DNA of 64,000 bases. Origin: Gemmatimonadota bacterium. Its GTDB lineage: Bacteria > Gemmatimonadota > Gemmatimonadetes > Palauibacterales > Palauibacteraceae. Location of the stretch: the NCBI GenBank assembly GCA_039584255.1, contig JBDGYE010000001.1:4228-68227 (forward strand), read 5' to 3'. The first letter of the stretch is position 1; every line of letters starts with the position of its first letter. The translations under genes were made by a program, and so were the position numbers. This document shows positions 15,031-31,210 of the stretch, one piece after another. The notes below the pieces were generated by a model that was not told the origin of the DNA, ran no database searches, and was given only the letters and a program-made list of their open reading frames with translations.

Positions 15031-15258
15031 ATGAACATTACACTTGCCATCGATGACGATCTGGTGAAGGCCGCGCGCGAGGTTGCAGGTGCCATGGGAA
15101 AAAGCCTGAATCAAGTCATCCGGGAGTACCTCGAGCACCTCACCGATCGGGGCCGGGTCGAGCGGGACATGCGAGAGCTGGAGCGGTTGTCCAGGGAGAG
15201 CGGGGGACACTCTGGCGGGCGACGCTGGTCTCGCGAAGAGATCTATGACCGTTCGTAG
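15031..15258 (+). CDS. Ribbon-helix-helix antitoxin (VapB-like)
   Basis: MNITLAIDDDLVKAAREVAGAMGKSLNQVIREYLEHL has a beta-strand plus two helices typical of RHH antitoxins. 14-nt overlap with the downstream PIN gene. Confidence 0.75.
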   Translation: MNITLAIDDDLVKAAREVAGAMGKSLNQVIREYLEHLTDRGRVERDMRELERLSRESGGHSGGRRWSREEIYDRS

Positions 15259-15658
15259 CTTTCTGGACAGCAATGTCCTGATCTACACGGACGACGTCGA
15301 TTCGCCGGGGAAACAGAGATCCGCGCTGGACCTGGTCAAGGCAGCGATTGCTGGCAGCTGGGGTGTCGTCTCAACGCAGGTACTCCAGGAATACTTCGCA
15401 GTCACTGCAAGTAAGCTCGGCGTATCAGCGGAGGCAGCGCGGGCCAAGGTCGAGATCTTCGGCCGGCTGGACGTCGCCACGATCGACATGCCGACGATCC
15501 TGGGGGCCATCGACATTCATCGACTGCACGATGTCAACTTCTGGGACGGCCTGGTCATCTACACGGCCCGGGCGGCAGGCTGCCGCATCCTGTACACGGA
15601 GGATCTCCAGCACGGCCGTCGATTCGACGGACTGGAAGTCGTGAATCCGTTCGAATGA
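15245..15658 (+). CDS. vapC: PIN-domain toxin (VapC family), second copy
   Basis: FLDSNVLIY (first acidic residue), ...VLQEY..., ...FWDGLVIYTA..., ...LYTEDL give the PIN catalytic D/E pattern. Confidence 0.85.
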   Translation: MTVRSFLDSNVLIYTDDVDSPGKQRSALDLVKAAIAGSWGVVSTQVLQEYFAVTASKLGVSAEAARAKVEIFGRLDVATIDMPTILGAIDIHRLHDVNFWDGLVIYTARAAGCRILYTEDLQHGRRFDGLEVVNPFE

Positions 15659-15695: not shown

Positions 15696-16325
15696 CTACC
15701 CGAAGAACCTGCCGAGTCCTCCGAGAAGCATCTGGACACCGATCGTAGCGAGGAGCAGCCCTCCGATACGGGCGATCACCGCCATTGTGGCAGGCCGGAT
15801 CTTCGTGAACACCCCGCTCAGCAGCGCGTAGGCAACGAACGCGATCAGGGCCACGACTCCTGCTCCGATGAGTGCCGCGGTCACGCCCTCCGACCCGTCT
15901 CGGCTCGCGGCGATCGTGATGGTGGTCGTCATGGCTCCCGGACCGGCGATCAATGGCAGTGTGAGTGGAATGAGCAGCGCGTCGCCCTCCACTGGACCTG
16001 CCTGCCGCTGCTCTTCCCCTTGGGTCTTGCTGGCTCCGCCGCCGTAGAGCATCTCGAAGCCCATCAGCGCGATGATCAGGCCTCCCACCACGCTGAAGGC
16101 GTTCAGGTCGATACCGATCAGGTCCAGCAGCTGCCGTCCCGCCAGGGCCGTCCCACCCAGGATGAGGGCTACGTAGAGCGCTACCCTTCCCGCGGCCCAC
16201 GTCCGGTTCCGGGGTGGGTCGGCGATGGCCTGGTTGAAGAACATGACCTTGATCGGGTCCATGGGGGACGTGATCACCACCATGGAGATGATGGACTGGA
16301 CGAGGAACTCGACGTCTATGGCCAA
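15696..16325 (-). CDS. marC: MarC family (UPF0056) integral membrane protein
   Basis: 209 aa with six hydrophobic segments. The N-terminal VITSPMDPI and the GGASK loop are characteristic of the MarC/NAAT family. Confidence 0.8.
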   Translation of the reverse strand: MAIDVEFLVQSIISMVVITSPMDPIKVMFFNQAIADPPRNRTWAAGRVALYVALILGGTALAGRQLLDLIGIDLNAFSVVGGLIIALMGFEMLYGGGASKTQGEEQRQAGPVEGDALLIPLTLPLIAGPGAMTTTITIAASRDGSEGVTAALIGAGVVALIAFVAYALLSGVFTKIRPATMAVIARIGGLLLATIGVQMLLGGLGRFFG

Positions 16326-16338
16326 GGGTGAAACCCTC

Positions 16339-17601
16339 CTAGACGGAAATGTCCCACTGGATCCGGACGTTCGTGCCGCCCTCCTCGCCCTGAACCGGAT
16401 CCTTGAAGTTCAGATACGAGACCTCGGCCGTCAGCTTGTTGCGGTGCCCGTTGAAGAACCAGTTCACCGCAAACGAGAACTGCTGCTGCAGGTCCGTCGG
16501 CTGGTCCAGCCGGGGGTCGTAGAAGGCGTAGCGAACGGCCAGCTCCAGCGGCCTCGGAAACGCCTCCCATGCGTGATGGAAGAAGTATCCCGCCTGGACG
16601 TAGTTGCCGACCAGGGTTGAGACCGTCCCGTTCACCGTGTCGTCGATCTCCTTCCAGTGGAACTCCTGTTGCCACGAGAAGCCGCGGTACTTGAAGGCGG
16701 TCTCCGCCATCCACTGGTAGACCCTGTACTGCCCGTCCTCCCCATCCTCGAATCCCTCGAGCTGTCCTCCGCCCGCGGTCGAAAAGCGGGTGAAGCGGCT
16801 GCGGTTGGTGTTACCCGCCAGGGCGACGAGTGCCGCGGGCTTCTCGCTATGCGCGATGTCGGAACCTGAGAAATCGACCACCCGTCCGAAAGGATTCCAC
16901 TGGCCGCGCACCGACCACATCATGTGTTCGTCGTCGTTGCTCGTCGCACCCCGACCAATGCCGGTGAACACGCCGGCCCAGTGGCTGAAGTCGGCGACCC
17001 CCTTGCCCTCGAGCCGACCGTACGCTGCCACTCCGACCTGGCGATCGACCGTGAACGGCCGGGTGATGATCGAGCGTTCCGACATCTGCTGCTTGCCCGA
17101 CGAGATGATACGCTCGCGATTGTAGTGCACCTTCCACTGCCCGACCTTCAGCTTGAGAGCCGGCAGCTTCTCGATCATGAAGCGAAAGTCGAGCAGGGCC
17201 CCGGCGGCCAGCTCGTACTCCATGTAGTACTTGAGCCACGGCCGGTAGCCGTGCCCACCGATCTTGGCTCGCGCCCGGTTGATCTTGAACGTGGCGTCGT
17301 CCGGTCCCGAGAGGGCCTCGAAGGTGACCGGGCTCGCGTCGTAGGGATAGGCGAACCGGAACTGGATGCGCAGCTCGCCGTGAAGCAGGAAGTTGCCGTC
17401 GGAGGTCCCGACCCAGAATCCCTTGTCCCCGTAACCGCCCTTGATCGAGGGCTCCTCCTGGGCGGCGCTGTCCTGAGGGGCGGAATCGTCGGGCGGAGGC
17501 TCTCCCTCCTGGGCGACCGCGAGCGGGCACAGCGACAGGATCCAGCCGAATAGCAGGGAGGCCGTCGCCCACGCGGGCGCCATTCGTCGCGCTCCGATCA
17601 T
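16339..17601 (-). CDS. Phosphate-selective porin O/P family outer-membrane protein
   Basis: Signal peptide, then G.L.IQFRF...INRARAKIGGH...WKYYMEYEL and the C-terminal NKLTAEVSYL, typical of OprO/OprP-like porins. Confidence 0.8.
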   Translation of the reverse strand: MIGARRMAPAWATASLLFGWILSLCPLAVAQEGEPPPDDSAPQDSAAQEEPSIKGGYGDKGFWVGTSDGNFLLHGELRIQFRFAYPYDASPVTFEALSGPDDATFKINRARAKIGGHGYRPWLKYYMEYELAAGALLDFRFMIEKLPALKLKVGQWKVHYNRERIISSGKQQMSERSIITRPFTVDRQVGVAAYGRLEGKGVADFSHWAGVFTGIGRGATSNDDEHMMWSVRGQWNPFGRVVDFSGSDIAHSEKPAALVALAGNTNRSRFTRFSTAGGGQLEGFEDGEDGQYRVYQWMAETAFKYRGFSWQQEFHWKEIDDTVNGTVSTLVGNYVQAGYFFHHAWEAFPRPLELAVRYAFYDPRLDQPTDLQQQFSFAVNWFFNGHRNKLTAEVSYLNFKDPVQGEEGGTNVRIQWDISV

Positions 17602-20007: not shown

Positions 20008-20748
20008 CTAGGGACTCCAATTGTGGAAAGCACGCAGGCGCAGGAAGAGCTCGTTGAACGAGCCCTCTGCGAAGAAGCGTCCCGCCTTCTGCCAGGTGGC
20101 CTCCAACCGCGCTCGCCAGGCCGGGCCGATTCCTCGCTCTAATCCGGCGACCACGCGGATCTGCTCCTGCGCCTGGCCTTCCTGGCCAGCCAGCCTCGCG
20201 AAAAGCTCCGCGCTCAGCAGGACGCGCCACATTCGATCCCGCCTGAGCCACGCGCCCCATTGATGAGACGCGCGGATCCGGTAACGTAGACGCAGCGAAA
20301 TCTGGGAGTCCCAGGTCTCCGTGTTGAACTCGAACCGCTCCTCCAATCGCAGCACGTGCTGGAGCTGGAACGGAAGCCTGGGCCACACCGCCGACACACC
20401 CTGCCATGGACGAACCTCCCAGCGGTTGGCCGTGTCCTCGTTCCAGGTGAAGAAGCTGCCGATACCTCCCTGGATGACGACCCTGTCGCTTGCCGCATAG
20501 CGCACGTTCGGCCGGATGACGAGACGGTGCCAGCCGCTCGACTCGAGCTGCGTCCGGTATCCCACGTCGCCGAAGAGATCGACGCGCTCCGATATCGCGG
20601 TCGACGGGTTGTAGTCCAGCCACAGCTCCGGCACCACCTCGTCCTCGCTCTGCGCGGCCGCCGGATCTGGGGCAAGGAACGTGAGCCCGACAAGAGCCGG
20701 GAAGAACACAGAGACGCGACGCACGGCAGTGCTCGGCAACGGCGTCAC
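20008..20748 (-). CDS. DUF2490-like outer-membrane protein
   Basis: A GTG at 20748 overlaps the TetR stop (GTGA); GTG 20724 is an alternative start. Signal-like VSVFFPALVGLTFLAPDPAAAQ. The motif RLEERFEFN....SLRLRYRIR is typical of DUF2490. Confidence 0.7.
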   Translation of the reverse strand: MTPLPSTAVRRVSVFFPALVGLTFLAPDPAAAQSEDEVVPELWLDYNPSTAISERVDLFGDVGYRTQLESSGWHRLVIRPNVRYAASDRVVIQGGIGSFFTWNEDTANRWEVRPWQGVSAVWPRLPFQLQHVLRLEERFEFNTETWDSQISLRLRYRIRASHQWGAWLRRDRMWRVLLSAELFARLAGQEGQAQEQIRVVAGLERGIGPAWRARLEATWQKAGRFFAEGSFNELFLRLRAFHNWSP

Positions 20749-21362
20749 CCGTCGGTGAGAAAGACCACCAGACGGTCGACCAGTTCTCGGCGTCTCTTCT
20801 TCGAGAGAGCCGGATACATCTTTCCCTGCCAGGCCATATAGCAAACGAACGTGCGTGACCTGAACTCCCTCTCGTCACCGGTGATGCCCAGTTCCGCGAG
20901 TGCCTGCTGCACGTAATCCAGCCGCAGCCGGATCACCCTGTTCACGCGGCGCGCCACCTCCCCGTCGTGTTCAGCCCAGGCGAGGAAAGCCAGATCGTAC
21001 CCAGAGAGATCGTGCTCCAGGACCAACTCGGCGATTCGGTGCAGCCTCTTCCGCGGTTCTACCATGCGCAGCTCGGGATTCTCGGAGAGAACCTCGGTAT
21101 ACTCGTGAGCCCAATACTCGAGCATCTGCATGAAGAGGTCCCGTCGGTCCTTGAAATGCCAATAGAATCCGCTCTTGGAAGTAGCCAGGTCGCGCGCCAG
21201 TCGCTCTACTCGCACTCCCCCAACTCCCTCTTCACCGAGGACTCGCATCGCAGCCTCGAGCCACTCTCCTTTTCTCTTTCGTTTCTTCCCGCGTACGCTC
21301 ACCGCATGACTCGCTGGTCGGGGCATCTGACGGCTTGTCCGCTCTTCGGACGGACGACCCAA
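20745..21362 (-). CDS. TetR/AcrR family transcriptional regulator
   Basis: HTH region WLEAAMRVLGEEGVGGVRVERLARDLATSKSGFYWHFKDRRDL. The start is uncertain (ATG 21362 or the internal MPRPASH). Confidence 0.85.
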   Translation of the reverse strand: MGRPSEERTSRQMPRPASHAVSVRGKKRKRKGEWLEAAMRVLGEEGVGGVRVERLARDLATSKSGFYWHFKDRRDLFMQMLEYWAHEYTEVLSENPELRMVEPRKRLHRIAELVLEHDLSGYDLAFLAWAEHDGEVARRVNRVIRLRLDYVQQALAELGITGDEREFRSRTFVCYMAWQGKMYPALSKKRRRELVDRLVVFLTDG

Positions 21363-22184: not shown

Positions 22185-23507
22185 ATGCGAAAGTTTCTCG
22201 TGATGCTTGGCGGCCTCGGCGTTCTGGCTCTGGTGCTGGCAGCGTACGACCTGGGCCGCGCCGACCAGGAAGCCGGAATCGACCGGCTGACGGCGCCGGC
22301 CCTGTACGCCGCCGACGCGAACACCATCATCGGGCTGGAAGCCGGCACCACGCTGCCCCAGGAGCGGCAGACGATCACACGCACCGGCACGGTCGAGGAT
22401 CGCGACGTCTACTATCCGGGCACGGAAGCGCTGGGCCCGGATGAGATGCGCGTCACGGCCTGCGGAACGGGCATGCCCAACGCACGGCCCAAGCAGGCGG
22501 CGGCATGCTGGCTGGTCGAGCTTGGCAACGGCGACAAGTTCCTGTTCGACATCGGGACCGGGTCGGCCGAGCGCATCTCGGCGCTCAAGATCCCCTACGA
22601 CTTCCTGGACAAGGTATTCGTCGGCCACCTGCACTCCGATCACTTTGGCGACCTCGACGCGCTGTGGGTCGGCGGCGTGGTCGGGAACCGGGTGACGCCA
22701 CTCAAGGTGTGGGGGCCGAGCAGCGAGACCCACGAGTACGGTACGGCCTACGCACTGGAGCATCTCGAGAAGAGCCTCAAGTGGGACGTGGACACGCGGT
22801 TCGGCAACACGGACACCCGGGGCCTGTTCCTCGAAGTGACCGAGTTCGACTACCGGGGGATCAACGAGGTCATCTACCAGGAGAACGGGGTCACCATCCG
22901 GACCATCCCCGCCATCCACATCTACGACGGCCCGGTGAGCTTCATCCTCGAGTGGAACGGGCTGAAGTTCGCGTACTCGAGCGACACGTTTCCCAACAAG
23001 TGGTGGATCGAGCACACCAAGGGCGTCGACCTTGCGGTCCACGAGTGCTTCATCACCCCGGAGGCCCTGGTCGCGAAGCAGAACTTCACCCCGGCTGCCG
23101 CACTCAACGTGGGCACGCAGATTCACACCTCGCCGGCACAGTTCGGCAAGGTGATGGCCGAGACCCGGCCGCGCATGGCGGTCGGCTATCACTTCTTCAA
23201 CGACTTCGACACGCAGCCGGGGGTCCTGCGCGACATTCGGCGCTCCTACGATGGACCGCTCGCGCTCGCCGTGGACTACATGGTGTTCAACGTGACGAAG
23301 GACGACATCAGGGTGCGGATGGCGGCAGTGGACGAGGACATCTGGCCGATGCCGTCGGCGCTTGGAAACGCTCCGCCCGATCCGGCGCTCCAGCGCACTC
23401 AGTTCTCGGACATGATGCTCGGCGGCAAGGTCGTGCACCGCGACATCCTCGAGGAGATCTATGCCGAGATCAACGACATGTACGGGACGGAGATTCCCGT
23501 GCCGTAG
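22185..23507 (+). CDS. MBL-fold metallo-hydrolase (RNase Z/ElaC-like subgroup) with an N-terminal membrane anchor, paralog 1
   Basis: HxHxDH motif in VGHLHSDHFGD. Start MRKFLVMLGGLGVLALVLAAY after an AGGGAGG RBS. By eye, more than half of aligned positions are identical to the ORF at 26199..27431. Confidence 0.85.
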   Translation: MRKFLVMLGGLGVLALVLAAYDLGRADQEAGIDRLTAPALYAADANTIIGLEAGTTLPQERQTITRTGTVEDRDVYYPGTEALGPDEMRVTACGTGMPNARPKQAAACWLVELGNGDKFLFDIGTGSAERISALKIPYDFLDKVFVGHLHSDHFGDLDALWVGGVVGNRVTPLKVWGPSSETHEYGTAYALEHLEKSLKWDVDTRFGNTDTRGLFLEVTEFDYRGINEVIYQENGVTIRTIPAIHIYDGPVSFILEWNGLKFAYSSDTFPNKWWIEHTKGVDLAVHECFITPEALVAKQNFTPAAALNVGTQIHTSPAQFGKVMAETRPRMAVGYHFFNDFDTQPGVLRDIRRSYDGPLALAVDYMVFNVTKDDIRVRMAAVDEDIWPMPSALGNAPPDPALQRTQFSDMMLGGKVVHRDILEEIYAEINDMYGTEIPVP

Positions 23508-25371: not shown

Positions 25372-26179
25372 GTGCGAGCTAGATCTTGTAGCGGGACCTG
25401 TCGCTCTTCTCTCGCTCCTTCGCTGATGGCCTTCTGCCTTCTGGTCGGGCCACTGGTCAGGCCCGGCGCCCTCCGCGCCCAGGACGACAGCTCCACCACC
25501 CAGATCTGGGCCAACGTGACGCTCGGTATCCCGAGCGCGAATCCGAAGTGGTTCTACGAGATCGACTTCGAGCCGAAGGTACAAGTAAGCGGCCCGGAGA
25601 AGTGGACGGGGATGACCATCAACACGCTGGCTTCGCTTCGGCCGCTTCACTGGCTGGATCTGACGGGGGACGTCAGCGTCGATTACACCGTACAGAGCGA
25701 CGACCTTCAGACGTTCTCCATCGTTCCACGGATCGGCGCGGCGCTTCACATCCTGTCCAACATCCGTGAGACTGGGTTTATCTCCCAGAAGGTGAAGCGC
25801 CTCGGCCTCGCAACCCTGCTGCGCCTGGAGTGGCGGAACTTCTGGTACTCGGGATCGGCCGCCGAGCAGAGCTACGAATCCTCCCTCGTGGCGGTTCCGG
25901 ATGCGTTTTGACGTGCGCCTCGGGTTGAACCGGGCGGATCGGTCAATGCCGAAGACGTGGTACCTGTTCGGCGACGCGGAGGCGTTCGTGAACCTCGGCG
26001 ACCCGACCGCGGAGACCTTCAACTCCAGGTGGCGGGTGCGCATCGGGCCGGGCTACCGCCTGAACCGGGGCTGGCGTTTCGAGCTGCTGTACATGTTCGA
26101 GGAAACGCGCAATACTCTCGAGGGAGACTTCGAGCGGTCGAACAACGTGATCGATTTGAGGGCCGGCTACAACTTCTGA
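25372..26179 (+). pseudogene. DUF2490-like outer-membrane protein gene interrupted by a +1 frameshift near 25883..25885
   Basis: ORFs 25372..25911 and 25901..26179 are consecutive fragments. Removing one C from the CCC run joins them as ...RLEWRNFWYSGSAAEQSYESS-WRFRMRFDVRLGLN.... This aligns with RLEERFEFNTETWDSQISLRLRYRIRAS of the intact paralog at 20008..20748. Confidence 0.6.
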
Positions 26180-26198
26180 ACCGAAAAGGAATGCGAGC

Positions 26199-27431
26199 AT
26201 GACATTCAAGACCGGTGTGCTGGTGGGCGTGATAGCGACCCTCGTCGCGGGCGCCACCGTCGGCTTCGTGATGACGCAGGAACGTGATGCGCTGGTGAGT
26301 GCGACCGAGGCCCGCGGGCCCGCTGACGCCTACTACCCGAACTCCGAGACCCTGGCGCCCGACGAAATGCGGGTCATCTCGTGCGGCACGGGCATGCCGA
26401 CGGGACGCGAGTCCCAGGCCGCCGCCTGCTTCCTGGTGGAGCTCGGGAACGGCGACAAGTTCCTGTTCGACTCGGGCACGGGCTCGCACGTCCGCGTCGC
26501 CAGCCTGGAGATCCCGTACGACTTCCTGGACAAGATCTTCATCAGCCACCTGCACACGGACCACTTCGGCGACTTCGCGGCCTACTACATCGGCGGCTGG
26601 GTCGGCGGCCGCAGCGTGCCGCTCAACGTGTGGGGACCGAGCGGTCCGCGTGAGGACCTGGGGACCGACTACGCGCTCACGCACTGGAAGGAGGCGCTGG
26701 CCTGGGACCGCCAGAACCGGGTCGGCCGGCTGCCCGCCCCCGGCGGCGAGCTCGTGATCCACGAGTTCGACTACAAGGGTGAGAACCAGGTGGTGTACGA
26801 GGAGAACGGGGTGGTCATCCGGTCGTATCCGGCGATCCACGGCATCGACGGTTCGGTCAGCTACCGGCTCGACTGGAACGACCTGTGCTTCGTGTTCGGC
26901 GGCGACACGTATCCCAACCAGTGGTTCGTCGAATATTCGCAGGGCTGCGACCTCGTCGTGCACGAGGCGATGATGGCCGTCGAGGACTACATCGCTAAGT
27001 ACAAGTTCCCGCCCAGCCTGGCGCTCGAGATCGGCGTGGGGATCCACACGTCGCCGGAGTCGTTTGGCAAGGTGATGAGCCTGGTCCGGCCGCGGATGGC
27101 CGTGGCCTACCACTTTTTCAACGACTTCGACATCCAGGAGCGCGTGGGCCTCGGGATCCGCAGCACGTACGACGGGCCGATCACGCTGGCCACCGACTAC
27201 ATGGTGTGGAACGTGACCAAGGACGACATCAAGGCGCGCGAGGTGGTGTTCAACGAGAACGTGTGGCCGCCGCCCGCCGCGTATCCGAAGCCCGAGATGG
27301 ACACGTCAGGCATGATGTTCGTGTCCGAGGAGATCGGGGCCCGGAAGCTGGTCGAGGCCTTGGACGTGGACGAGACGATCTACGCGCGCATCAACGCGGC
27401 GTACGGGACGGACTACAAGCTGCGTCGCTGA
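26199..27431 (+). CDS. MBL-fold metallo-hydrolase (RNase Z/ElaC-like subgroup) with an N-terminal membrane anchor, paralog 2
   Basis: SHLHTDHFGD motif. Collinear with 22185..23507 along its whole length (YYP..E.L.PDEMRV..CGTGMP, VELGNGDKFLFD.GTGS, RPRMAV.YHFFNDFD). Confidence 0.85.
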   Translation: MTFKTGVLVGVIATLVAGATVGFVMTQERDALVSATEARGPADAYYPNSETLAPDEMRVISCGTGMPTGRESQAAACFLVELGNGDKFLFDSGTGSHVRVASLEIPYDFLDKIFISHLHTDHFGDFAAYYIGGWVGGRSVPLNVWGPSGPREDLGTDYALTHWKEALAWDRQNRVGRLPAPGGELVIHEFDYKGENQVVYEENGVVIRSYPAIHGIDGSVSYRLDWNDLCFVFGGDTYPNQWFVEYSQGCDLVVHEAMMAVEDYIAKYKFPPSLALEIGVGIHTSPESFGKVMSLVRPRMAVAYHFFNDFDIQERVGLGIRSTYDGPITLATDYMVWNVTKDDIKAREVVFNENVWPPPAAYPKPEMDTSGMMFVSEEIGARKLVEALDVDETIYARINAAYGTDYKLRR

Positions 27432-27451
27432 TCTCCAGCACTCCTTCCACC

Positions 27452-27483
27452 GAGGGCGGACGCCACCGAAGGCATCCGCCCTC
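27452..27483. terminator. GC-rich hairpin between convergent genes (copy A of the duplicated HAD terminator)
   Basis: gagggcggacgcc-accgaa-ggcatccgccctc forms a 13-bp stem. The single mismatch is C-A on the plus strand, which is G-U on the minus-strand transcript. No clear U-tract. Confidence 0.4.
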
Positions 27484-27528
27484 CATCACGACGCTTCCCT
27501 ACGGCAGGTCGGGCGACGGGAAGATCCT
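27456..27528. repeat. Direct repeat copy A (~73 bp), homologous to 28445..28517
   Basis: Aligned by eye as gcggacgccaccgaaggcatccgccctccatcacgacgcttccctacggcaggtcgggcgacgggaagatcct versus copy B, with roughly 10 mismatches. It contains a relic stop plus the codons ...FPSPDLP*. Confidence 0.75.
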
Positions 27529-27544
27529 GACGATCGGCGGGCAA

Positions 27545-27868
27545 TTACTTGGCCGCAGCCTTGCGAGCCTTCTTCTGGCGCGGCCGGACGACGTCGAGCA
27601 CGGCTTCCGGGTGGAAGGCTGCGACGCGAAGCAGAACCCTGGCGGGCCCGCGCGGAATGCGACGACCTTGCTCCCAGTTCTGGAGAGTCCGGACGCTGAT
27701 GCCCATGAGAGAGGCGAACTTGGCCTGCGACAGCCCGTACCGCTCGCGAATGGCCGCGACATCCGCTTCCGGGATCTCGAAGGTACGAGCGGCATGTGCA
27801 CGCTCTCGAAGGATGCTACTGCCCTGACGGACGCTCTCCTCGAGTTCCTGGAACAGTTCGTCCTTCAC
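27545..27868 (-). CDS. higA: HTH (XRE-type) antitoxin, HigA-2-like
   Basis: GLSQAKFASLMGISVRTLQNWEQGRRIPRGPARVLLRV is the typical HigA-2/COG2944 HTH segment. 4-nt overlap with the upstream toxin gene. The toxin-first gene order is typical of hig loci. Confidence 0.8.
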   Translation of the reverse strand: MKDELFQELEESVRQGSSILRERAHAARTFEIPEADVAAIRERYGLSQAKFASLMGISVRTLQNWEQGRRIPRGPARVLLRVAAFHPEAVLDVVRPRQKKARKAAAK

Positions 27869-28182
27869 TTGTACTCCTCCTCTACGATCCGGCGCAGGAT
27901 CTTCTTCTGATCACGGGTTAGATCGCTGCGCTCGCTCTTCGCGAACATCATGAGCAACAAGATCGTATCGTAAGCCCTGGCCCAATAGTAAATGACGCGA
28001 ACGCCGCCGCTCTTGCCGCGACCGGAGCCACGCCACCGTATCTTCCGCAGACCGCCGGTACCCGGAATGAGTGATCCCGCCTCAGGGTCCGCGGCGAGGC
28101 GCAGCTGCAGAAGACGATAGCTCTCCGCATCGAGCAGGCTCTGCGCCCGCTTGGAGAAGACCGTCGTCTCCTTGATCAGCAT
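27865..28182 (-). CDS. higB: RelE/ParE-superfamily toxin, HigB-2-like
   Basis: GGLRKIRWRGSGRGKSGGVRVIYYW is the conserved core of this toxin family. Start MLIKETTVF at 28182 (verified cat 28180..28182). GC is locally lower. Confidence 0.8.
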   Translation of the reverse strand: MLIKETTVFSKRAQSLLDAESYRLLQLRLAADPEAGSLIPGTGGLRKIRWRGSGRGKSGGVRVIYYWARAYDTILLLMMFAKSERSDLTRDQKKILRRIVEEEYK

Positions 28183-28444
28183 GATGAATATACGCCAATG
28201 ACGTACATAAAACAAGCCTGCGGTTTCGGTCCATGCGCCTGCCTGATTCTGCGGGAACGCAAGGATGGTGGACGCTACCGTACCTTCGTGACTCTAGGCG
28301 AGGAGATTCAAGAGAGGTTCAACCAGGCTGGTCGGCTCAGAGCCCGGGGGGACCGGATACGCCACGCAAGGGCGCGGAGGCACCGGAGGCTTCCCTAGCA
28401 GCCACCGCCGACCCACGAGCACCCGGTAGATGATGTAGCCGGCA

Positions 28445-28468
28445 GCGGACGCCACCGGAGGCGTCCGC
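28445..28468 (-). terminator. Putative terminator hairpin of the HAD hydrolase gene
   Basis: gcggacgcc-accgga-ggcgtccgc has a perfect 9-bp stem and 6-nt loop, 20 bp downstream of the stop at 28488. Confidence 0.45.
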
Positions 28469-28517
28469 CCTCCATCATGACGCTGCTCTACGGCAGTTCG
28501 GGCGAGGGAAAGACCTT
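28445..28517. repeat. Direct repeat copy B (~73 bp): terminator hairpin plus the last ~10 codons of the HAD hydrolase gene
   Basis: gcggacgccaccggaggcgtccgccctccatcatgacgctgctctacggcagttcgggcgagggaaagacctt matches 27456..27528. Confidence 0.75.
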
Positions 28518-29534
28518 CTTCCAGTCGTTCTTCATGCTGACCACCGTCCACCCGCGCTCCGGCGCTTCGGTAAGCGCCACGTCCAGTCTCCCCACATGCG
28601 AGTCGCGATCGTAGGCGGCTTCGCGCTCGTCATCGTCGTGGTGGACGATGAGGCCGAACGCCGTCCGTTCTCCAGGAGCCGCGTACTGCAGCATCTGGAG
28701 GTCTCCGTCCGAGTTCCCGGCGGCGAAGATGGGCCGACGGCCGATGTACCGGTAGATGCCGACCGGCTTGCCGGCCTTGTCGTCCACGAAGTTGATCTCG
28801 GGCAGCTTGTGCAGCGTCGGGAACCCGTCGTCCATGCTGAACTCGAGCGCCCCCGAACTGCCCACTACCTGCTCCGGTGGTATTCCGTACGCATCTTCGG
28901 CGAAACTGCGCATGAAGTCGATGCCGCCGCCGGACACGATGAACGTCTTGAACTCGTGCGCCCGCAGGTACACAAGCAGCTCCACCATCGGCTGGTAGAT
29001 GAGCTCGTCGAACGCGACCCCGTACCGTGGGTGACGCGCGGTGGCCAGCCAGTCCTTGAGGACGGCTTCGAACTCGTCCGTCGTGAGGCCAGAGTGAGCG
29101 GTCATCACGACCTTGAGTACATCCTGCAGCTCGAACGTCGCCAGGGCCTCCCGATCGTCCTCGAGTACGGCCCTGAACGCTTCCTCCTCGCGCCACTCGG
29201 GGTGCTCGTCCGCCAGCGCCTTCACCCGGTCGATGGCGAACTGGACTTGGAAATACATCGGCTGCTCGGACCACAGCGTCCCGTCGTTGTCGAACACGGC
29301 GATGCGTTCGGCAGGTGCCACGTAGTCGGACGAAGCCGGATCCGTGACGCGGGCCACGAAGTCGATGATCGCCTGCTTCGACGCGCCCTCGTTCCAGGAT
29401 CGAAGGGACGGCGCCGGCGCCGCCTCGGAGATCTGGCTCAACTCGGAGGAGGAGTCGGCGGGCCGCTCGGTGCAGGCGCTGAGACCTGCGAACGCAGCCA
29501 ACAGAACAAAAGCCGGAATTCGTTGAATTTGCAT
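28488..29534 (-). CDS. HAD-superfamily hydrolase (phosphatase-like), lipoprotein
   Basis: DxDxT motif in AVFDNDGTLWSE, later SGG and GNSDGDLQML (HAD motifs III/IV). Start MQIQRIPAFVLLAAFAGLSAC with a lipobox. The ATG at 29534 was verified. Confidence 0.8.
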   Translation of the reverse strand: MQIQRIPAFVLLAAFAGLSACTERPADSSSELSQISEAAPAPSLRSWNEGASKQAIIDFVARVTDPASSDYVAPAERIAVFDNDGTLWSEQPMYFQVQFAIDRVKALADEHPEWREEEAFRAVLEDDREALATFELQDVLKVVMTAHSGLTTDEFEAVLKDWLATARHPRYGVAFDELIYQPMVELLVYLRAHEFKTFIVSGGGIDFMRSFAEDAYGIPPEQVVGSSGALEFSMDDGFPTLHKLPEINFVDDKAGKPVGIYRYIGRRPIFAAGNSDGDLQMLQYAAPGERTAFGLIVHHDDDEREAAYDRDSHVGRLDVALTEAPERGWTVVSMKNDWKKVFPSPELP

Positions 29535-29650
29535 TGGTGCCTTTCTTCTCGAGCGCTGAGTCTGAAGCGCAATCCAGCGGAGTGGATGAATGCGAAGCGG
29601 GCGCCACTCCGGGCGCCCCCTATCGCTACCTGGCATTCAGCACGCCGTCC

Positions 29651-31210
29651 TCAATTCGTCGGCGGTGCCAGCTTCTCCATCACCTGCTGCAGGCTGAAGC
29701 TCGCCGCCTTCTGCCGCGGCGGATACTCCTGGAACGTGGCAAGGAACCGCGCAACGTAGGATTGCGCAGGGACCATGAAGAACACGTGGTCGAGGACCCA
29801 ATCGAAGTAGGTGTTCGAGGTAGTCTCGGCCCGCTCGTACGGATCGCGGCGCAGGTTGAACATCAGCGGAGCGCGGAGCGGAACGAACGGCTCCATCCAG
29901 ACACGGAAGGTGCCAGTGGCCTTCTGCTCCATGAAGATCAGCTTCCAGTCGTTCCAGCGCAGCGCCGTCAGATCTCCGTCATCCGAGAAATAGAAGATCT
30001 CTTCACGGGGGCTCTCGTCTGTCTGGCCCGTGAGGAGCGGCAGGATGTTGTAGCCGTCCAGGTGCACCTTATAAGACCGGCCGAGTGCAGACGACTGCCA
30101 GCCGTCCAGCAGGTCCTCCTTGACGTCCGACTTGCCGGCGGCCGCGGCGAACGTCGGCAGCCAGTCCATGTGGTGCACGATCTCGTTGGTCACCGACCCG
30201 GCCGGGATGTTGCCTGGCCAGCGGACCATGGCCGGCACGCGCCAGCCACCTTCCCAGTTCGTGTTCTTCTCGCCCCGGAACGGAGTGGACGCGGCATCCG
30301 GCCACGTGTTGTAGTGCGGGCCGTTGTCGGTCGAGTAGAACACGATCGTGTTGTCCGCGATGCCCAGCTCGTCGAGCAGGTCGAGGAACTTCCCGATGTG
30401 CATGTCGTGCTCGACCATTCCATCCGAGTACTCGTCCTGCCCCGAGATCCCTCTCAACTCTTCCTTCACGTGCGTCCGGAAGTGCATGCGCGTGCCGCTC
30501 CACCAGACGAAGAACGGCTGGCCGCGCTCGTGAGCGTCCCGGATGAAGCGGACGGCGGCCTCAGAGGTCTCGTCATCCACGGTCTCCATCCGCTTCTTCG
30601 TCAGCGGCCCCGTGTCCTCGACGCGCTGGGTGCCGTCCTCGTTGGCCCAACTGTGGATGACGCCCCGCGGCCCGAACCGCTCCCGGAAGGTCCGGCCATC
30701 AGACGTGATCAGATCGCCGGGATAGTCCTCGAGCTCGGGCTCCTCCTCGGCGTTCAGGTGGTACAGGTTGCCGAGGAATTCATCGAACCCGTGGTTCGTC
30801 GGCAGCATTTCGTCCTTGTCACCCAGGTGGTTCTTCCCGAACTGCCCGGTCGCGTATCCGAGCTCCTTCAGGACAACCGCGATCGTCGGATCCTCCACCT
30901 GCATGCCCAGATCGGCGCCCGGAAGTCCCACCTTCGAGAGGCCCGTCCGGAACACGCTCTGACCCATGATGAAGGACGAGCGACCGGCCGTGCAGCTCTG
31001 CTCGCCGTAGTAGTCCGTGAAGATCATGCCCTCGCCGGCGATGCGGTCGATGTTCGGGGTCCGGTAGCCCATCACGCCCATCGTGTAGGTACTGATGTTG
31101 GACTGACCGATGTCATCACCCCACACGACGAGGATGTTGGGCTTGTCCTGCGCGGCGGCCGGGGCGGCAAACAGCAATGCCGCGCAGCTGCCAAGGAACC
31201 ATCGTTTCAT
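29651..31210 (-). CDS. Arylsulfatase (formylglycine-dependent, Cys-type)
   Basis: NILVVWGDDIGQSN ... CTAGRSSFIMG (C-x-A-x-R signature). Signal peptide MKRWFLGSCAALLFAAPAAAQ. Confidence 0.9.
   Translation of the reverse strand: MKRWFLGSCAALLFAAPAAAQDKPNILVVWGDDIGQSNISTYTMGVMGYRTPNIDRIAGEGMIFTDYYGEQSCTAGRSSFIMGQSVFRTGLSKVGLPGADLGMQVEDPTIAVVLKELGYATGQFGKNHLGDKDEMLPTNHGFDEFLGNLYHLNAEEEPELEDYPGDLITSDGRTFRERFGPRGVIHSWANEDGTQRVEDTGPLTKKRMETVDDETSEAAVRFIRDAHERGQPFFVWWSGTRMHFRTHVKEELRGISGQDEYSDGMVEHDMHIGKFLDLLDELGIADNTIVFYSTDNGPHYNTWPDAASTPFRGEKNTNWEGGWRVPAMVRWPGNIPAGSVTNEIVHHMDWLPTFAAAAGKSDVKEDLLDGWQSSALGRSYKVHLDGYNILPLLTGQTDESPREEIFYFSDDGDLTALRWNDWKLIFMEQKATGTFRVWMEPFVPLRAPLMFNLRRDPYERAETTSNTYFDWVLDHVFFMVPAQSYVARFLATFQEYPPRQKAASFSLQQVMEKLAPPTN

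What the first reader, a model, noticed from the sequence alone, without database searches (positions are those of the whole stretch)
27452..28517. HigBA-like TA cassette is bracketed by ~73-bp direct repeats that duplicate the 3' end and terminator of the neighbouring HAD hydrolase gene
Segments 27456..27528 and 28445..28517 align collinearly by eye, with roughly 10 mismatches over ~73 nt.
- Copy B holds the last ~10 codons of the HAD gene (...KKVFPSPELP*) plus a 9-bp-stem hairpin 20 bp downstream.
- Copy A holds a relic reading ...RIFPSPDLP* followed by the same hairpin. The relic is visible as the C-terminus of the otherwise meaningless ORF 27499..27801.
- The single substitution in the copy A stem is C-A on the plus strand. 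That is a G-U wobble in the minus-strand transcript, so the RNA structure is preserved.

The ~916 bp between the repeats holds only higB, higA and ~260 bp of unassigned, visibly less GC-rich DNA. No integrase or transposase is present. This looks like an insertion scar (attL/attR-like, or a recombination-generated target duplication) of a self-contained TA cassette at a gene's 3' end. Such a mobility footprint is rarely documented for TA modules.
Basis: seen in the sequence. Interest (0 to 1): 0.7.

Follow-up and report, generated by a model that had tools for sequence, protein, structure and literature searches.

The report
Recombination scar around a HigBA-2 module
The 69-bp direct repeat around this toxin-antitoxin pair is real, but it is most likely a scar of sloppy, short-homology recombination that fused two alternative versions of a variable chromosome spot in a Gemmatimonadota bacterium, not the footprint of a self-mobile toxin-antitoxin cassette.

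Summary
Segments 27456-27524 and 28445-28513 are 61/69 identical, about 73 nt with one indel. This is far above chance, there are only two copies in 64 kb, and two independent assemblies show the same arrangement. Copy B is the 3' end, spacer and terminator of the intact HAD gene. Copy A is a relic of the same module next to the convergent MBL gene.

- A related genome has sulfatase-HAD-one hairpin-convergent MBL-fold gene and no TA. However, that MBL is the ortholog of a paralog (window 22185-23507).
- The 916 bp between the repeats is not a self-contained cassette. Window 28374-28455 is a 90% identical relic of the 3' end of a Zn-metallopeptidase gene that sits intact in this interval in relatives.
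- That relic joins the copy-B hairpin through a 10/11-nt microhomology.
- The HAD relic next to higA is shared by all relatives with higBA beside this MBL gene, including relatives with no HAD gene and no copy B.
- No recombinase, tRNA, attC or dispersed copies were found.
- The toxin and antitoxin belong to the Vibrio HigB-2/HigA-2 family. Their closest non-syntenic relatives sit in integron-like attC arrays, but the window copy has no attC.

Best reading: a mosaic built by microhomology-mediated (HFIR-type) recombination. Interest is moderate to low.

The parts
26199..27431 (+). MBL-fold hydrolase gene ('MBL410'), convergent with the TA and HAD genes. It is the right-hand conserved anchor of all higBA-bearing variants of this locus.
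   Evidence: Pfam Lactamase_B and Lactamase_B_2; NCBIfam GntH-like, 452 bits. DNA identity is 90-92% to L099, L083 and L084.
27432..27451 (.). Post-hairpin flank of the original HAD terminator module. It is homologous to the flank after the single hairpin in the TA-less relative.
   Evidence: By eye: window (- strand) CTCGGTGGAAGGAGTGCTG against L001 CTCGCTGGTAGGAGTGGTG, 16 of 19 matching.
27452..27483 (.). Hairpin A. This is the full 13-bp-stem terminator-like hairpin between the convergent genes (arms 27452-27464 and 27471-27483).
   Evidence: the repeat finder I20. RNA folds of both strands. No U-tract follows, so the simple terminator scan does not call it.
27456..27528 (.). Direct repeat copy A: the relic of the HAD 3' end (27499-27528, with the stop relic at 27499-27501), plus spacer and hairpin.
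   Evidence: The coding part is identical to the relic in L088 and near-identical to that in L183.
27529..27544 (-). Short 3' flank of higA (- strand TTGCCCGCCGATCGTC). Its first roughly 13 nt resemble the stretch between the higA stop and the attC R'' box in the integron-type cassettes. It is followed by joint J3 to the HAD relic.
   Evidence: By-eye comparison of the downstream sequences printed: CTCCCGC(A/C)GACC is shared with L191, L090 and L179.
27545..27868 (-). higA-2-like antitoxin gene (107 aa, HTH_3; GTG start overlapping the higB stop).
   Evidence: Pfam HTH_3 1.9e-9 and NCBIfam NadS/MqsA-like. PDB V. cholerae HigA-2, E 5e-13. dN/dS about 0.1 against relatives.
27865..28182 (-). higB-2-like toxin gene (105 aa, RelE/ParE superfamily).
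   Evidence: Pfam PF06296, 29 bits against a cut-off of 27. PDB V. cholerae HigB-2 (5JA8, 5JA9), E 6e-21. The identical protein P0001 occurs in L081 and L082. dN/dS about 0.2-0.3.
28183..28335 (-). higBA upstream region. It contains a conserved imperfect palindrome plus a -10-like TATATT just before the ATG (28186-28205). It is shared with all MBL-adjacent relatives. Only the proximal roughly 25-45 nt are shared with the integron-type cassettes.
   Evidence: BLAST borders at 28335 or 28323 (L083-L088, L183, L182, L192) and at 28205 (cassette forms). Sequences. Coordinates.
28326..28342 (.). Joint J2 (- strand CTCTGAGCCGACCAGCC). The Zn-peptidase stop region (CTGAGCCG, as in L099) is fused to the higBA upstream region (GCCG(G)ACCAG, as in L182 and L192). 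It looks like a microhomology deletion of the MarC and glucosaminidase genes.
   Evidence: Sequences. Coordinates. Inference by eye.
28374..28455 (-). Relic of the 3' end of a Zn-metallopeptidase (PF04298) gene. It reads ..ASAAGYIIYRVLVGRRWLLGKPPVPP.. and the intact gene lies in this interval in L099 and L182.
   Evidence: 90% (74/82) to L099 and 88% to L182. The L099 protein hits PF04298 at 7e-74.
28445..28455 (.). Joint J1, an 11-nt overlap (- strand GTGGCGTCCGC). It belongs both to the copy-B hairpin arm and to the Zn-peptidase homology (L099 GTGGCATCCGC), giving a 10/11 microhomology.
   Evidence: whose alignment end points overlap.
28445..28517 (.). Direct repeat copy B: the last roughly 10 codons of the intact HAD gene, stop, a 19-nt spacer and a hairpin truncated to a 9-10-bp stem.
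28488..29534 (-). HAD-IB family hydrolase gene. The likely start is the ATG at 29534, which gives a lipoprotein-like signal peptide; the ORF itself runs to 29636.
   Evidence: Pfam HAD 1.1e-10. 86% DNA identity and collinear with sulfatase-HAD in L185 and L001.

Best explanation
The locus is a hybrid of two alternative gene-content versions of one variable interval. Illegitimate recombination at short microhomologies fused them. The direct repeat is a by-product of that fusion, not a transposition or att footprint.

**Shown.**
The conserved frame is SOD-sulfatase ... MBL-fold genes. Related Gemmatimonadota fill the interval in different ways:
- (a) HAD followed by one terminator hairpin (L001, L185-L190).
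- (b) Zn-peptidase-MarC (L099).
- (c) Zn-peptidase 3' end-MarC-glucosaminidase-higB (L182). L183, which shares the glucosaminidase-like upstream flank, supplies the right-hand part: higBA followed by the HAD 3' relic. Joining the two into one arrangement is an inference.
- (d) MarC-glucosaminidase stump-78-nt HAD stump-higBA-HAD relic (L083-L088).

The window reads sulfatase-HAD-spacer-hairpin B | Zn-peptidase 3' relic | higBA | HAD 3' relic-spacer-hairpin A-MBL.

**Inferred history.**
1. An ancestor carried HAD, spacer and hairpin next to the MBL gene.
2. In one lineage a block ending in higBA displaced HAD. Only its last 27-45 nt, the spacer and the terminator remained. This is joint J3 and copy A.
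3. MarC and glucosaminidase were deleted between GCCG-type microhomologies. This is joint J2.
4. An intact HAD with its terminator was joined to the interior of the Zn-peptidase gene. The joint is the 11-nt microhomology GTGGCRTCCGC, which lies in the hairpin's distal arm. This is joint J1 and copy B. The likely route is homology-facilitated illegitimate recombination: one end anchored by homology in the flanking sulfatase or MBL gene, the other end joined at the microhomology.

Copies A and B are then two descendants of the same HAD-3'-end/terminator module brought into one chromosome. Gene conversion may have partly homogenised them.

higBA itself is an intact HigBA-2-type module under purifying selection. 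It survives in every rearranged variant. That fits counter-selection of any recombinant that loses it, but this point is inferred, not shown.
For: - **Repeat real and locus-specific:**
- **Zn-peptidase relic inside the 'insert':** its homology starts exactly where the repeat ends, with a 10/11 overlap.
- **Alternative interval contents in relatives that share the flanking genes:** L099 has sulfatase at 88% and MBL at 90% DNA identity but Zn-peptidase-MarC in between. L185 has SOD-sulfatase-HAD collinear with the window. L182 has the Zn-peptidase 3' end, MarC, glucosaminidase and higB, where the contig ends. L084 has MarC, a glucosaminidase stump, a 78-nt HAD stump and the TA.
- **Shared right-hand joint, variable left flank:** the joint of higA 3' flank to HAD relic, including a shared 6-nt gap relative to HAD, is common to the window, L083-L088 and L183. 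The left flank differs in every type.
- **Order of events:** the window and L084 share derived characters in the higBA upstream region (CCGAC, plus a CCTGG/CCTAG insertion). The L084 joint (..TCGCCCGAC|CAGCC) is what a roughly 160-nt microhomology deletion (CCGAC) of the window type would give.
- **Age:** the A-B distance is 8/69 = 0.12. dS of higBA between the window and L183 or L084 is 0.14-0.19. The repeat is therefore old, not a fresh insertion.
- **Recombination between lineages is visible inside the module:** L088 is L084-like on the left and window-like from mid-higA onward.
- **No dedicated machinery:** no recombinase among the eight ORFs of 14-37 kb that matched a Pfam family (six others gave no match), no tRNA, no Rfam element.
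- **Precedent:** HFIR with 3-10-bp microhomology joints is an established route for foreign DNA (de Vries & Wackernagel 2002, Prudhomme et al. 2002, Meier & Wackernagel 2003, as summarised in PMC6382021).
Against: - After the relic stop codon, copy A's spacer and hairpin are about 88-94% like copy B. They are hardly alignable with the spacer and hairpin at the same position in L183, L084 and L088. If copy A were simply the old relic, it should resemble those. This needs gene conversion from B, replacement of the terminator region in the other lineages, or a duplicative origin (rival 1).
- No contig shows the complete TA-bearing version together with what lies upstream of the Zn-peptidase gene. 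A HAD copy could already have been present there.
- The only TA-less HAD-hairpin-MBL site found has the paralogous MBL gene.
- Several joint assignments (J2, J3) rest on short by-eye alignments.
- Natural transformation or another DNA-uptake route is unknown for these uncultured Gemmatimonadota.
Confidence: 0.5

Rival explanations
1. One-step duplicative insertion. A foreign fragment (Zn-peptidase 3' end-higBA-first part of an older HAD relic) entered a HAD-spacer-hairpin-MBL site by two template switches or staggered joints. The first switch left the recipient at the hairpin arm through the 11-nt microhomology. The second returned to the recipient 69 nt upstream through the roughly 25-nt homology between the donor's HAD relic and the resident HAD 3' end. 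The 69 nt were therefore copied twice. The repeat is then a true target duplication, made by replication or repair (MMBIR/FoSTeS-like) and not by a mobile-element enzyme.
For: - Copy A looks chimeric. Its first 18 nt on the - strand (27528..27511) are identical to the L088 relic and differ from copy B at 4 of 18 positions.
- From the stop codon onward, copy A follows copy B (5 mismatches in 51 nt, TAG stop). It does not follow the other relics (TGA, unalignable spacer).
- One breakpoint lies in a strong hairpin, a plausible replication pause site.
- There is microhomology at J1.
Against: - The L084/L088-type joint is most simply derived from a window-type ancestor. The duplication is therefore at least as old as that split, and the present A-B similarity is equally explained by age (0.12 against dS of 0.14-0.19).
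- The chimera argument rests on about 9 informative sites.
- No independent example of such a duplication was found at other loci.
Confidence: 0.25
2. Site-specific integration. A mobile element carrying higBA integrated into the 3' end of the HAD gene through an attP that mimics the HAD 3' end and terminator. This gave attL and attR as the two copies. The recombinase gene and the rest of the element were later deleted.
For: - The repeats bracket DNA that is absent from a related HAD-hairpin-MBL site.
- Integration into gene 3' ends with a replacement 3' end is a known habit of tyrosine-recombinase elements (general knowledge).
- The repeat length of 69 nt is within the range of such att duplications.
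Against: - No recombinase gene lies between or near the repeats and there is no tRNA.
- The longest perfectly identical run between the copies is 14 nt.
- The left end of the repeat coincides with a microhomology to a Zn-peptidase pseudogene. That gene is ordinary chromosomal cargo of this same interval in relatives.
- Homologous higBA modules elsewhere carry attC-like repeats, or no repeat of this kind.
- Relatives keep the relic without the second copy.
Confidence: 0.07
3. Integron-integrase-mediated insertion of a higBA gene cassette at a secondary (non-attI, non-attC) site, followed by decay of its attC.
For: - The nearest non-syntenic relatives (HigB 86-89% aa, 79-82% DNA) are cassettes in arrays. 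They are separated by 80-90-nt attC-like sites with R''/R' boxes and bottom-strand hairpins.
- V. cholerae HigBA-2, the structural homologue, is a superintegron cassette (general knowledge).
- TA cassettes with their own promoters are typical of chromosomal integrons (PMC13108822).
- Homology to the cassette form ends about 13 nt after the higA stop, where the cassettes' attC begins.
Against: - No attC-like sequence is found anywhere in the 64-kb window, allowing up to 3 mismatches.
- A secondary-site insertion would leave a whole attC, not a duplication of 69 nt of target.
- About 130 nt of non-cassette upstream sequence is shared by all MBL-adjacent copies.
- The direction of descent, cassette to chromosome or the reverse, is unknown.
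Confidence: 0.03
4. The repeat is a generic dispersed terminator or REP-like element, or a chance resemblance limited to the hairpin.
For: Both copies contain a GC-rich hairpin in a terminator position.
Against: - There are only two copies in 64 kb, and none in the unrelated loci.
- The similarity runs 45 nt beyond the hairpin, through the spacer and into the HAD coding 3' end.
- The alignment score is about 30 sd above shuffles.
Confidence: 0.01

Closest known systems
Vibrio cholerae HigBA-2 (type II toxin-antitoxin; PDB 5JA8, 5JA9, 5JAA)
   Same: - The toxin gene comes first and overlaps the antitoxin start.
- The toxin matches HigB-2 at E 6e-21 and the antitoxin matches HigA-2 at E 5e-13.
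- The toxin scores above threshold for Pfam PF06296, and the antitoxin has an HTH_3 domain.
   Different: - The host is a Gemmatimonadota chromosome.
- This copy is not in an integron array, although close relatives in other metagenomic contigs are.
- Activity is untested.
Homology-facilitated illegitimate recombination (de Vries & Wackernagel 2002; Prudhomme et al. 2002; Meier & Wackernagel 2003)
   Same: - Foreign or heterologous DNA is joined at a short microhomology (here 10/11 nt at J1, about 4-7 nt at J2).
- Long homology is available on the other side, in the sulfatase or MBL genes.
- No dedicated recombinase is needed.
   Different: - Here it is inferred from natural sequence variants only, and DNA uptake in this organism is unknown.
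- One joint lies inside a terminator hairpin.
- The product carries a 69-nt duplication, which classical HFIR replacement events do not require.
Chromosomal TA 'islets' in intergenic regions and TA cassettes of sedentary chromosomal integrons
   Same: - A small intact TA pair sits between convergent or conserved genes and is present in some lineages and absent in others.
- Relatives of the same TA travel as integron cassettes with their own promoter (PMC13108822).
   Different: The window copy lacks attC. It is flanked by nested relics of two displaced neighbour genes (HAD and Zn-peptidase), which record several rearrangements around a constant TA.
attL/attR of integrative elements that target the 3' end of a gene
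   Same: Direct repeats comprising a gene's 3' end bracket the extra DNA, and the target gene stays intact.
   Different: - There is no recombinase.
- The identity is imperfect (88%, longest identical run 14 nt).
- The repeat end coincides with a microhomology joint to a chromosomal pseudogene.
- The relic is shared by relatives without the second copy.

Membership tests
HigBA-2-type type II toxin-antitoxin module | Toxin of the RelE/ParE superfamily related to HigB-2 | tested here: met
   PF06296 at 29.0 bits against a cut-off of 27. phmmer to PDB HigB-2 chains gives E 5e-21 to 1e-20 over residues 4-101.
HigBA-2-type type II toxin-antitoxin module | HTH (Xre/HTH_3) antitoxin related to HigA-2, encoded downstream of the toxin (reverse gene order), with genes overlapping | tested here: met
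   HTH_3 at 1.9e-9. HigA-2 at E 5e-13. higB 27865-28182 lies upstream of higA 27545-27868, with a 4-nt overlap GTGA.
HigBA-2-type type II toxin-antitoxin module | Toxicity (ribosome-dependent mRNA cleavage) neutralised by the antitoxin; autoregulation at an operator | not testable with these tools
   Indirect evidence only: both ORFs are intact, dN/dS is 0.1-0.3 against relatives, and a conserved imperfect palindrome overlaps a -10-like box at 28186-28205.
Integron gene cassette | attC site (R''-L''...L'-R', GTTRRRY) at the 3' end of the cassette | tested here: not met
   No match to either half of the relatives' attC in the whole window, allowing up to 3 mismatches. Homology to the cassette forms stops about 13 nt after the higA stop. 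The relatives L179, L191 and L090 do have such sites.
Integron gene cassette | Location in an array next to intI/attI | tested here: not met
   The neighbours are HAD, sulfatase and MBL genes. No integrase was found among the eight ORFs of 14-37 kb that matched a Pfam family; six others gave no match.
Site-specific integrative element (attL/attR) | Recombinase gene within or next to the bracketed DNA | tested here: not met
   The bracketed 916 nt hold only higB, higA, their upstream region and a Zn-peptidase relic.
Site-specific integrative element (attL/attR) | Identical core shared by both repeats, and the same att sequence at independent insertions | tested here: not met
   The longest identical run is 14 nt. 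The other loci carrying homologous higBA have different flanks: attC-like repeats, a glucosaminidase promoter, or a HAD stump.
Site-specific integrative element (attL/attR) | Empty site in a related genome with a single copy of the repeat | tested here: inconclusive
   L001 and L185-L190 have HAD, one hairpin and a convergent MBL-fold gene. That MBL is the ortholog of window 22185-23507, not of 26199-27431.
Transposon / IS target-site duplication | Transposase, terminal inverted repeats, short (2-15 bp) target duplication | tested here: not met
   There is no transposase. The only inverted repeats at the ends are the hairpins themselves. The duplication is 69 nt.
REP-like / dispersed terminator repeat | Many copies at unrelated intergenic sites | tested here: not met
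   There are two copies in the window, and otherwise only the same locus in L081 and L082.
Homology-facilitated illegitimate recombination product | Illegitimate joint at a 3-10-nt (or slightly longer) microhomology | tested here: met
   J1 is GTGGCGTCCGC against GTGGCATCCGC, an overlap of both homologies. J2 shares GCCG / (G)TGAACC, judged by eye.
Homology-facilitated illegitimate recombination product | Extended homology on one side serving as the anchor, and heterologous DNA acquired from a related donor | tested here: inconclusive
   Flanking sulfatase and MBL genes are shared at 88-92% with genomes carrying the alternative contents. The actual donor and recipient, and the uptake route, cannot be identified.

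The most novel reading that the evidence does not exclude
The toxin-antitoxin pair acts as the fixed point of a recombination hot spot. Because losing higBA is lethal or costly, allelic replacements and deletions in this interval can only survive if they stop at its borders. Successive events therefore leave nested stumps of the displaced neighbour genes on both sides: the HAD 3' end, the Zn-peptidase 3' end and a glucosaminidase stump. Occasionally they also leave a long duplication, when a terminator hairpin serves as the breakpoint for a template switch. The 69-nt repeat would then be a readable record of 'addiction-constrained' illegitimate recombination.
Probability: 0.2. Interest if true: 0.55.

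Novelty: new member of a known kind. Interest (0 to 1): 0.35.

Why it matters
**For annotation.**
- The pair is a HigBA-2-type module.
- The 'unassigned' DNA beside it contains a Zn-metallopeptidase pseudogene fragment.
- ORF 27499-27801 and ORF 28294-28551 are artefacts that read through gene relics.

**For genome evolution.**
- The locus, with its relatives, is a compact natural series of at least five structural variants of one interval. Joints can be read to the nucleotide.
- Chromosomal TA modules here sit in mosaics made by microhomology recombination, while sister copies of the same TA circulate as integron cassettes.
- A direct repeat around a TA pair should not by itself be taken as a mobility footprint.
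- If the addiction-constrained reading is right, the locus offers a sequence-level signature of TA-mediated stabilisation of neighbouring DNA. That signature could be searched for systematically.

Tried and rejected
- **Chance or REP explanation.** Rejected by shuffles and copy counts.
- **attC in the window.** Both conserved halves of the relatives' attC-like repeat were searched with up to 3 mismatches. Nothing was found.
- **Known RNA elements.** An Rfam E-value search of 26000-30000 gave only a chance-level hit (cold-seep-1, 22 bits against a gathering score of 126, E 0.55).
- **tRNA or tmRNA.** None in 15-40 kb, so this is not a tRNA-type att.
- **Promoter and terminator consensus scan.** No sigma-70-type site. 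The hairpins lack U-tracts.
- **PADLOC.** No defence-system assignment for HigB, and only weak HTH hits for HigA.
- **Treating L001 as a perfect empty site.** Rejected once its MBL gene proved to be the ortholog of the paralog at 22185-23507.
- **Completing the TA-bearing version.** I looked for what lies upstream of the Zn-peptidase gene through glucosaminidase homologues. The contexts found (L193-L195) are unrelated (LOR, MscS, BrkB) and uninformative.
- **Dating the duplication from hairpin similarity.** Abandoned as unreliable. The terminator region differs completely even between L084 and L088, which encode the identical HigB protein P0005 and are nearly identical across the left part of the module, and L088 is itself a recombinant.
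- **A 14-nt match (TCTCCCGCCGAYCG) on both sides of higBA in L084 and L088.** Judged possibly chance or a microhomology and not used.
- **Literature.** Searches for direct-repeat footprints of TA modules gave no close precedent. One query failed on syntax.
Full report
**1. The observation**

The repeat is real. The repeat finder reports 27456-27524 and 28445-28513 as a 69-nt ungapped direct repeat at 88% identity, 989 nt apart. A gapped local alignment carries it to about 73 nt. Its score is 99, against 17.8 +/- 2.6 for shuffled sequence. A 33-nt core occurs only twice in the 64-kb window, allowing up to 3 mismatches. Among the 192 loci held at that point, it occurs only in L081 and L082. Those two contigs come from two different metagenome assemblies of the same organism. 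They are 100% identical to the window over window 27300-28700, which spans both repeat copies. The structure is therefore not an assembly artefact.

- Copy B carries ...KKVFPSPELP*, the HAD stop, a 19-nt spacer and a hairpin.
- Copy A reads ...RIFPSPDLP*, followed by the same spacer and hairpin.
- The one stem substitution in copy A is a G.U pair on the minus-strand RNA.

Two refinements are needed.
- The copy A hairpin has a full 13-bp stem (27452-27464 / 27471-27483). The repeat ends inside the stem at 28445, so copy B keeps only 9-10 pairs.
- Only the part of the 'unassigned' DNA next to higB is lower in GC.

**2. The genes**

- 26199-27431 (+) is an MBL-fold hydrolase ('MBL410').
- 28488-29534 (-) is a HAD-IB hydrolase.
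- 29651-31210 (-) is a sulfatase.
- The pair 27865-28182 / 27545-27868 (-) has the toxin gene first and overlapping. The toxin scores above threshold for PF06296, and the antitoxin has an HTH_3 domain.
- By sequence, the two proteins match the solved Vibrio cholerae HigB-2 (E 6e-21) and HigA-2 (E 5e-13).
- Against relatives, both genes show dN/dS of about 0.1-0.3. The module looks functional.

**3. What related sequences show**

(a) *A TA-less HAD site.* L001 and L185-L190 come from a Gemmatimonadota MAG and from the same JGI sample series as the window's organism. HAD is 86% identical in DNA. These loci read SOD-sulfatase-sulfatase-HAD-stop-one hairpin, then a convergent MBL-fold gene 73 nt away, with no TA.
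- The window is collinear with them from SOD through HAD to the hairpin, ending at 28444.
- The 20 nt beyond hairpin A (27432-27451) are still homologous to the post-hairpin flank of L001.
- Caveat: the convergent gene there is the ortholog of window 22185-23507 ('MBL440', 88%), not of MBL410 (68%). This is not a perfect empty site.

(b) *A different filling of the same interval.* L099 has MBL410 at 94% aa identity and the sulfatase at 88% DNA identity. Between the sulfatase and MBL410 it has a Zn-metallopeptidase gene (PF04298, 7e-74), a MarC gene, then a hairpin.

Window 28374-28455 is 90% identical (74/82) to the last codons of that Zn-peptidase gene. The stop-codon region (CTGAGCCG) can also be recognised at 28333-28340. 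The 'unassigned DNA' therefore contains a pseudogene stump of a gene that belongs to this interval in relatives.

The Zn-peptidase homology starts at 28455. The repeat ends at 28445. The 11 nt in between (minus strand GTGGCGTCCGC; L099 GTGGCATCCGC) belong to both. This is joint J1, a 10/11 microhomology located in the distal arm of the terminator hairpin.

(c) *Other TA-bearing versions.* HigB homologues at 90-93% identity lie next to MBL410 in several contigs.
- L182 and L192: Zn-peptidase 3' end-MarC-glucosaminidase (opposite strand)-higB.
- L183: glucosaminidase-like gene-higBA-HAD relic.
- L083-L088: MarC, about 230 nt that are 91% identical to the MarC 3' end and glucosaminidase 3' end of L182, a 78-nt stump of the HAD 3' end, higBA, HAD relic, hairpin, MBL410.

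All of these share the same right-hand joint (J3). After the higA stop come about 16 nt, then ATCTTCCCGTyGCCCGACC..., the HAD 3' relic, which shares a 6-nt gap relative to intact HAD. Their left flanks all differ.

The window and L084 share derived characters in the higBA upstream region (CCGAC, and an extra CCTGG/CCTAG). The L084 joint ...TCGCCCGAC|CAGCC... is what a roughly 160-nt deletion of the window arrangement between CCGAC microhomologies would produce. I therefore take the window type to be ancestral to the L084 type.

The window's own joint J2 (CTGAGCCG|ACCAG, about 28333-28340) looks like a deletion of MarC and glucosaminidase from an L182-like arrangement (L182: GGTGCCGGACCAG).

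L088 is itself a recombinant. It is L084-like on the left and window-like from mid-higA onward.

(d) *The mobile form of this TA family.* The nearest non-syntenic relatives have HigB at 86-89% aa and 79-82% DNA identity over window 28205-27555 only. They lie in arrays with other TA pairs (HicAB, DUF4160, Gp49/HTH).
- Every unit in those arrays is separated by an 80-90-nt repeat: CTAACGGTCGGCGCCTGAGCTGCG...CAGCTCCAGGCGCGTGTTAGG.
- The bottom strands fold like attC sites: R''/R' pairing, an L-box stem with a bulged base, and a variable loop.
- These relatives are integron-type cassettes, as HigBA-2 is in the V. cholerae superintegron (my own knowledge). TA cassettes with their own promoter are typical of chromosomal integrons (PMC13108822).
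- The window has no such site.

**4. Age**

The two copies differ at 8 of 69 positions (0.12). Synonymous divergence of higBA between the window and L183 or L084 is 0.14-0.19. The duplication is therefore old, roughly as old as the split from those lineages. That agrees with the inference that the L084 type derives from a window-type ancestor.

**5. Best explanation (confidence about 0.5)**

The locus is a hybrid of two alternative contents of one variable interval. One is a HAD version. The other is a Zn-peptidase-MarC-glucosaminidase-higBA version that had already displaced HAD, except for its last 27-45 nt and terminator. The two were fused by illegitimate recombination at short microhomologies.

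J1 lies in the hairpin arm. The most likely route is homology-facilitated illegitimate recombination, with the flanking sulfatase or MBL gene as the homologous anchor. That mechanism uses 3-10-bp microhomologies (PMC6382021, citing de Vries & Wackernagel 2002 and others).

On this view, copies A and B are two descendants of one HAD-3'-end/terminator module that ended up in one chromosome.

- Shown: the relics, the microhomologies, the alternative contents, the shared J3, and the absence of recombinase, tRNA and attC.
- Inferred: the order of events, the HFIR route, and the idea that higBA persists in every variant because its loss is counter-selected.

**6. What does not fit, and the main rival**

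After the relic stop codon, copy A follows copy B (TAG stop, 5 mismatches in 51 nt). It does not follow the corresponding spacer and hairpin of L183, L084 or L088 (TGA stop, barely alignable). Yet copy A's first 18 nt are identical to the L088 relic and differ from copy B at 4 of 18 positions. Copy A therefore looks chimeric.

Three explanations are possible:
- gene conversion by copy B;
- replacement of the terminator region in the other lineages, which clearly happens, because L084 and L088 differ completely there;
- a genuinely duplicative origin.

The third is rival 1 (0.25). A fragment (Zn-peptidase stump-higBA-start of an older relic) entered a HAD-hairpin-MBL site by two template switches. 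One switch left at the hairpin through the 11-nt microhomology. The other returned 69 nt upstream through the relic/HAD homology, so that 69 nt were copied twice.

Both readings involve replication or repair-type illegitimate recombination, not a mobile-element enzyme.

**7. Other rivals**

- An att-type integration with later loss of the integrase (0.07) is disfavoured. There is no recombinase. Identity is imperfect, with the longest identical run 14 nt. The repeat end coincides with a joint to an ordinary chromosomal pseudogene. Relatives keep the relic without the second copy.
- Integron-integrase insertion at a secondary site (0.03) could at most explain the remote origin of the gene pair. 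It would leave an attC, not a 69-nt target duplication.
- A REP-like or chance repeat is refuted.

**8. Comparison with known things, and novelty**

The gene pair is a new member of the HigBA-2 family. The way it sits in the chromosome resembles known chromosomal TA islets and HFIR products. It is not an integron cassette, since the attC test was not met. It is not an integrative element, since the recombinase and core tests were not met.

The most unusual aspect is descriptive. A natural series of at least five structural variants surrounds one constant TA module, with nested stumps of displaced genes and nucleotide-level joints, one of them inside a terminator hairpin. That is useful but not surprising to specialists. 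I rate it as a new member of a known kind, with interest 0.35.

The most novel reading not excluded is that TA addiction constrains which recombinants survive, and so shapes these scars. I give it probability about 0.2 and interest 0.55 if true.

Noticed in passing
L179:900-2348, L191:303-1657, L090:2139-3740 (also L089-L098, L180, L181): Close homologues of the window's higBA sit in arrays with other TA pairs (HicAB, DUF4160, Gp49/HTH). Every unit is separated by an 80-90-nt repeat with R''(..CTAAC)/R'(GTTAGGY) boxes, and the bottom strand folds like an integron attC. These are probably chromosomal integron or CALIN cassette arrays in Gemmatimonadota/'Palauibacterales'-type genomes. No integrase was seen on these short contigs.
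   Followed up: partly
window 26199-27431 and 22185-23507: There are two paralogous MBL-fold genes at about 68% DNA identity. The first scores 452 bits against NCBIfam 'GntH guanitoxin biosynthesis MBL hydrolase' (cut-off 333), with no other guanitoxin genes evident nearby. This is probably only a family-level resemblance. In L099 and L083 the two paralogs are adjacent. In the window a sulfatase and a DUF2490 gene lie between them.
   Followed up: partly
window 25372-26179 (L081 2862-3615): The DUF2490 gene between the sulfatase and MBL410 is called as two pieces (161 aa and 77 aa) in overlapping frames. It may be a frameshifted pseudogene. A full-length DUF2490 gene lies at 20008-20874.
   Followed up: no
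window 15110-15658 (+) and 15696-16409 (-): A PIN-domain protein gene lies beside a second MarC-family gene. That MarC is 76% identical in DNA to the MarC which sits next to MBL410 in L099. The MarC of the variable interval may have a relocated or paralogous copy elsewhere in this genome.
   Followed up: no
L184:780-952: In the contig with the closest HigB (93%), higA loses its 3' end. It continues in frame into an enolase-superfamily (mandelate racemase-like) sequence. This is either another rearrangement at the higA end or a chimeric assembly.
   Followed up: no
L182:900-1856: The glucosaminidase (FlgJ/Bax-like) gene beside higBA is split into 93-aa and 217-aa ORFs, whereas homologues are 319-338 aa. 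It is likely a pseudogene in that lineage. In L084 only about 170 nt of its 3' end remain. In L193-L195 the intact gene sits in an unrelated context (LOR, MscS, BrkB).
   Followed up: partly
L088 vs L084 and window (alignment A1, columns ~990-1130): L088 is nearly identical to L084 through higB and the first half of higA. It then switches to window-like sequence through the HAD relic. Its spacer and hairpin resemble neither. This indicates recombination breakpoints inside the TA module and at the relic/spacer boundary.
   Followed up: partly
window 28183-28205: A conserved imperfect palindrome TACGTCATTGGCGTA overlaps a -10-like TATATT only about 8 nt upstream of the higB ATG. It is conserved even in the integron-cassette relatives. 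This suggests a HigA operator and possibly a leaderless higB mRNA.
   Followed up: no
window 29534-29636: The HAD ORF extends to 29636. Homologues (348 aa) and a lipoprotein-like signal peptide (MQIQRIPAFVLLAAFAGLSAC) point to the ATG at 29534 as the real start.
   Followed up: partly
L099:168-1081: The L099 lineage lacks HAD between the sulfatase and MBL410. It carries a HAD homologue (75% DNA identity, C-terminus ..KKVFPSPELP*) about 3 kb away on the other side of the MBL genes, followed by a co-directional gene instead of a hairpin.
   Followed up: no
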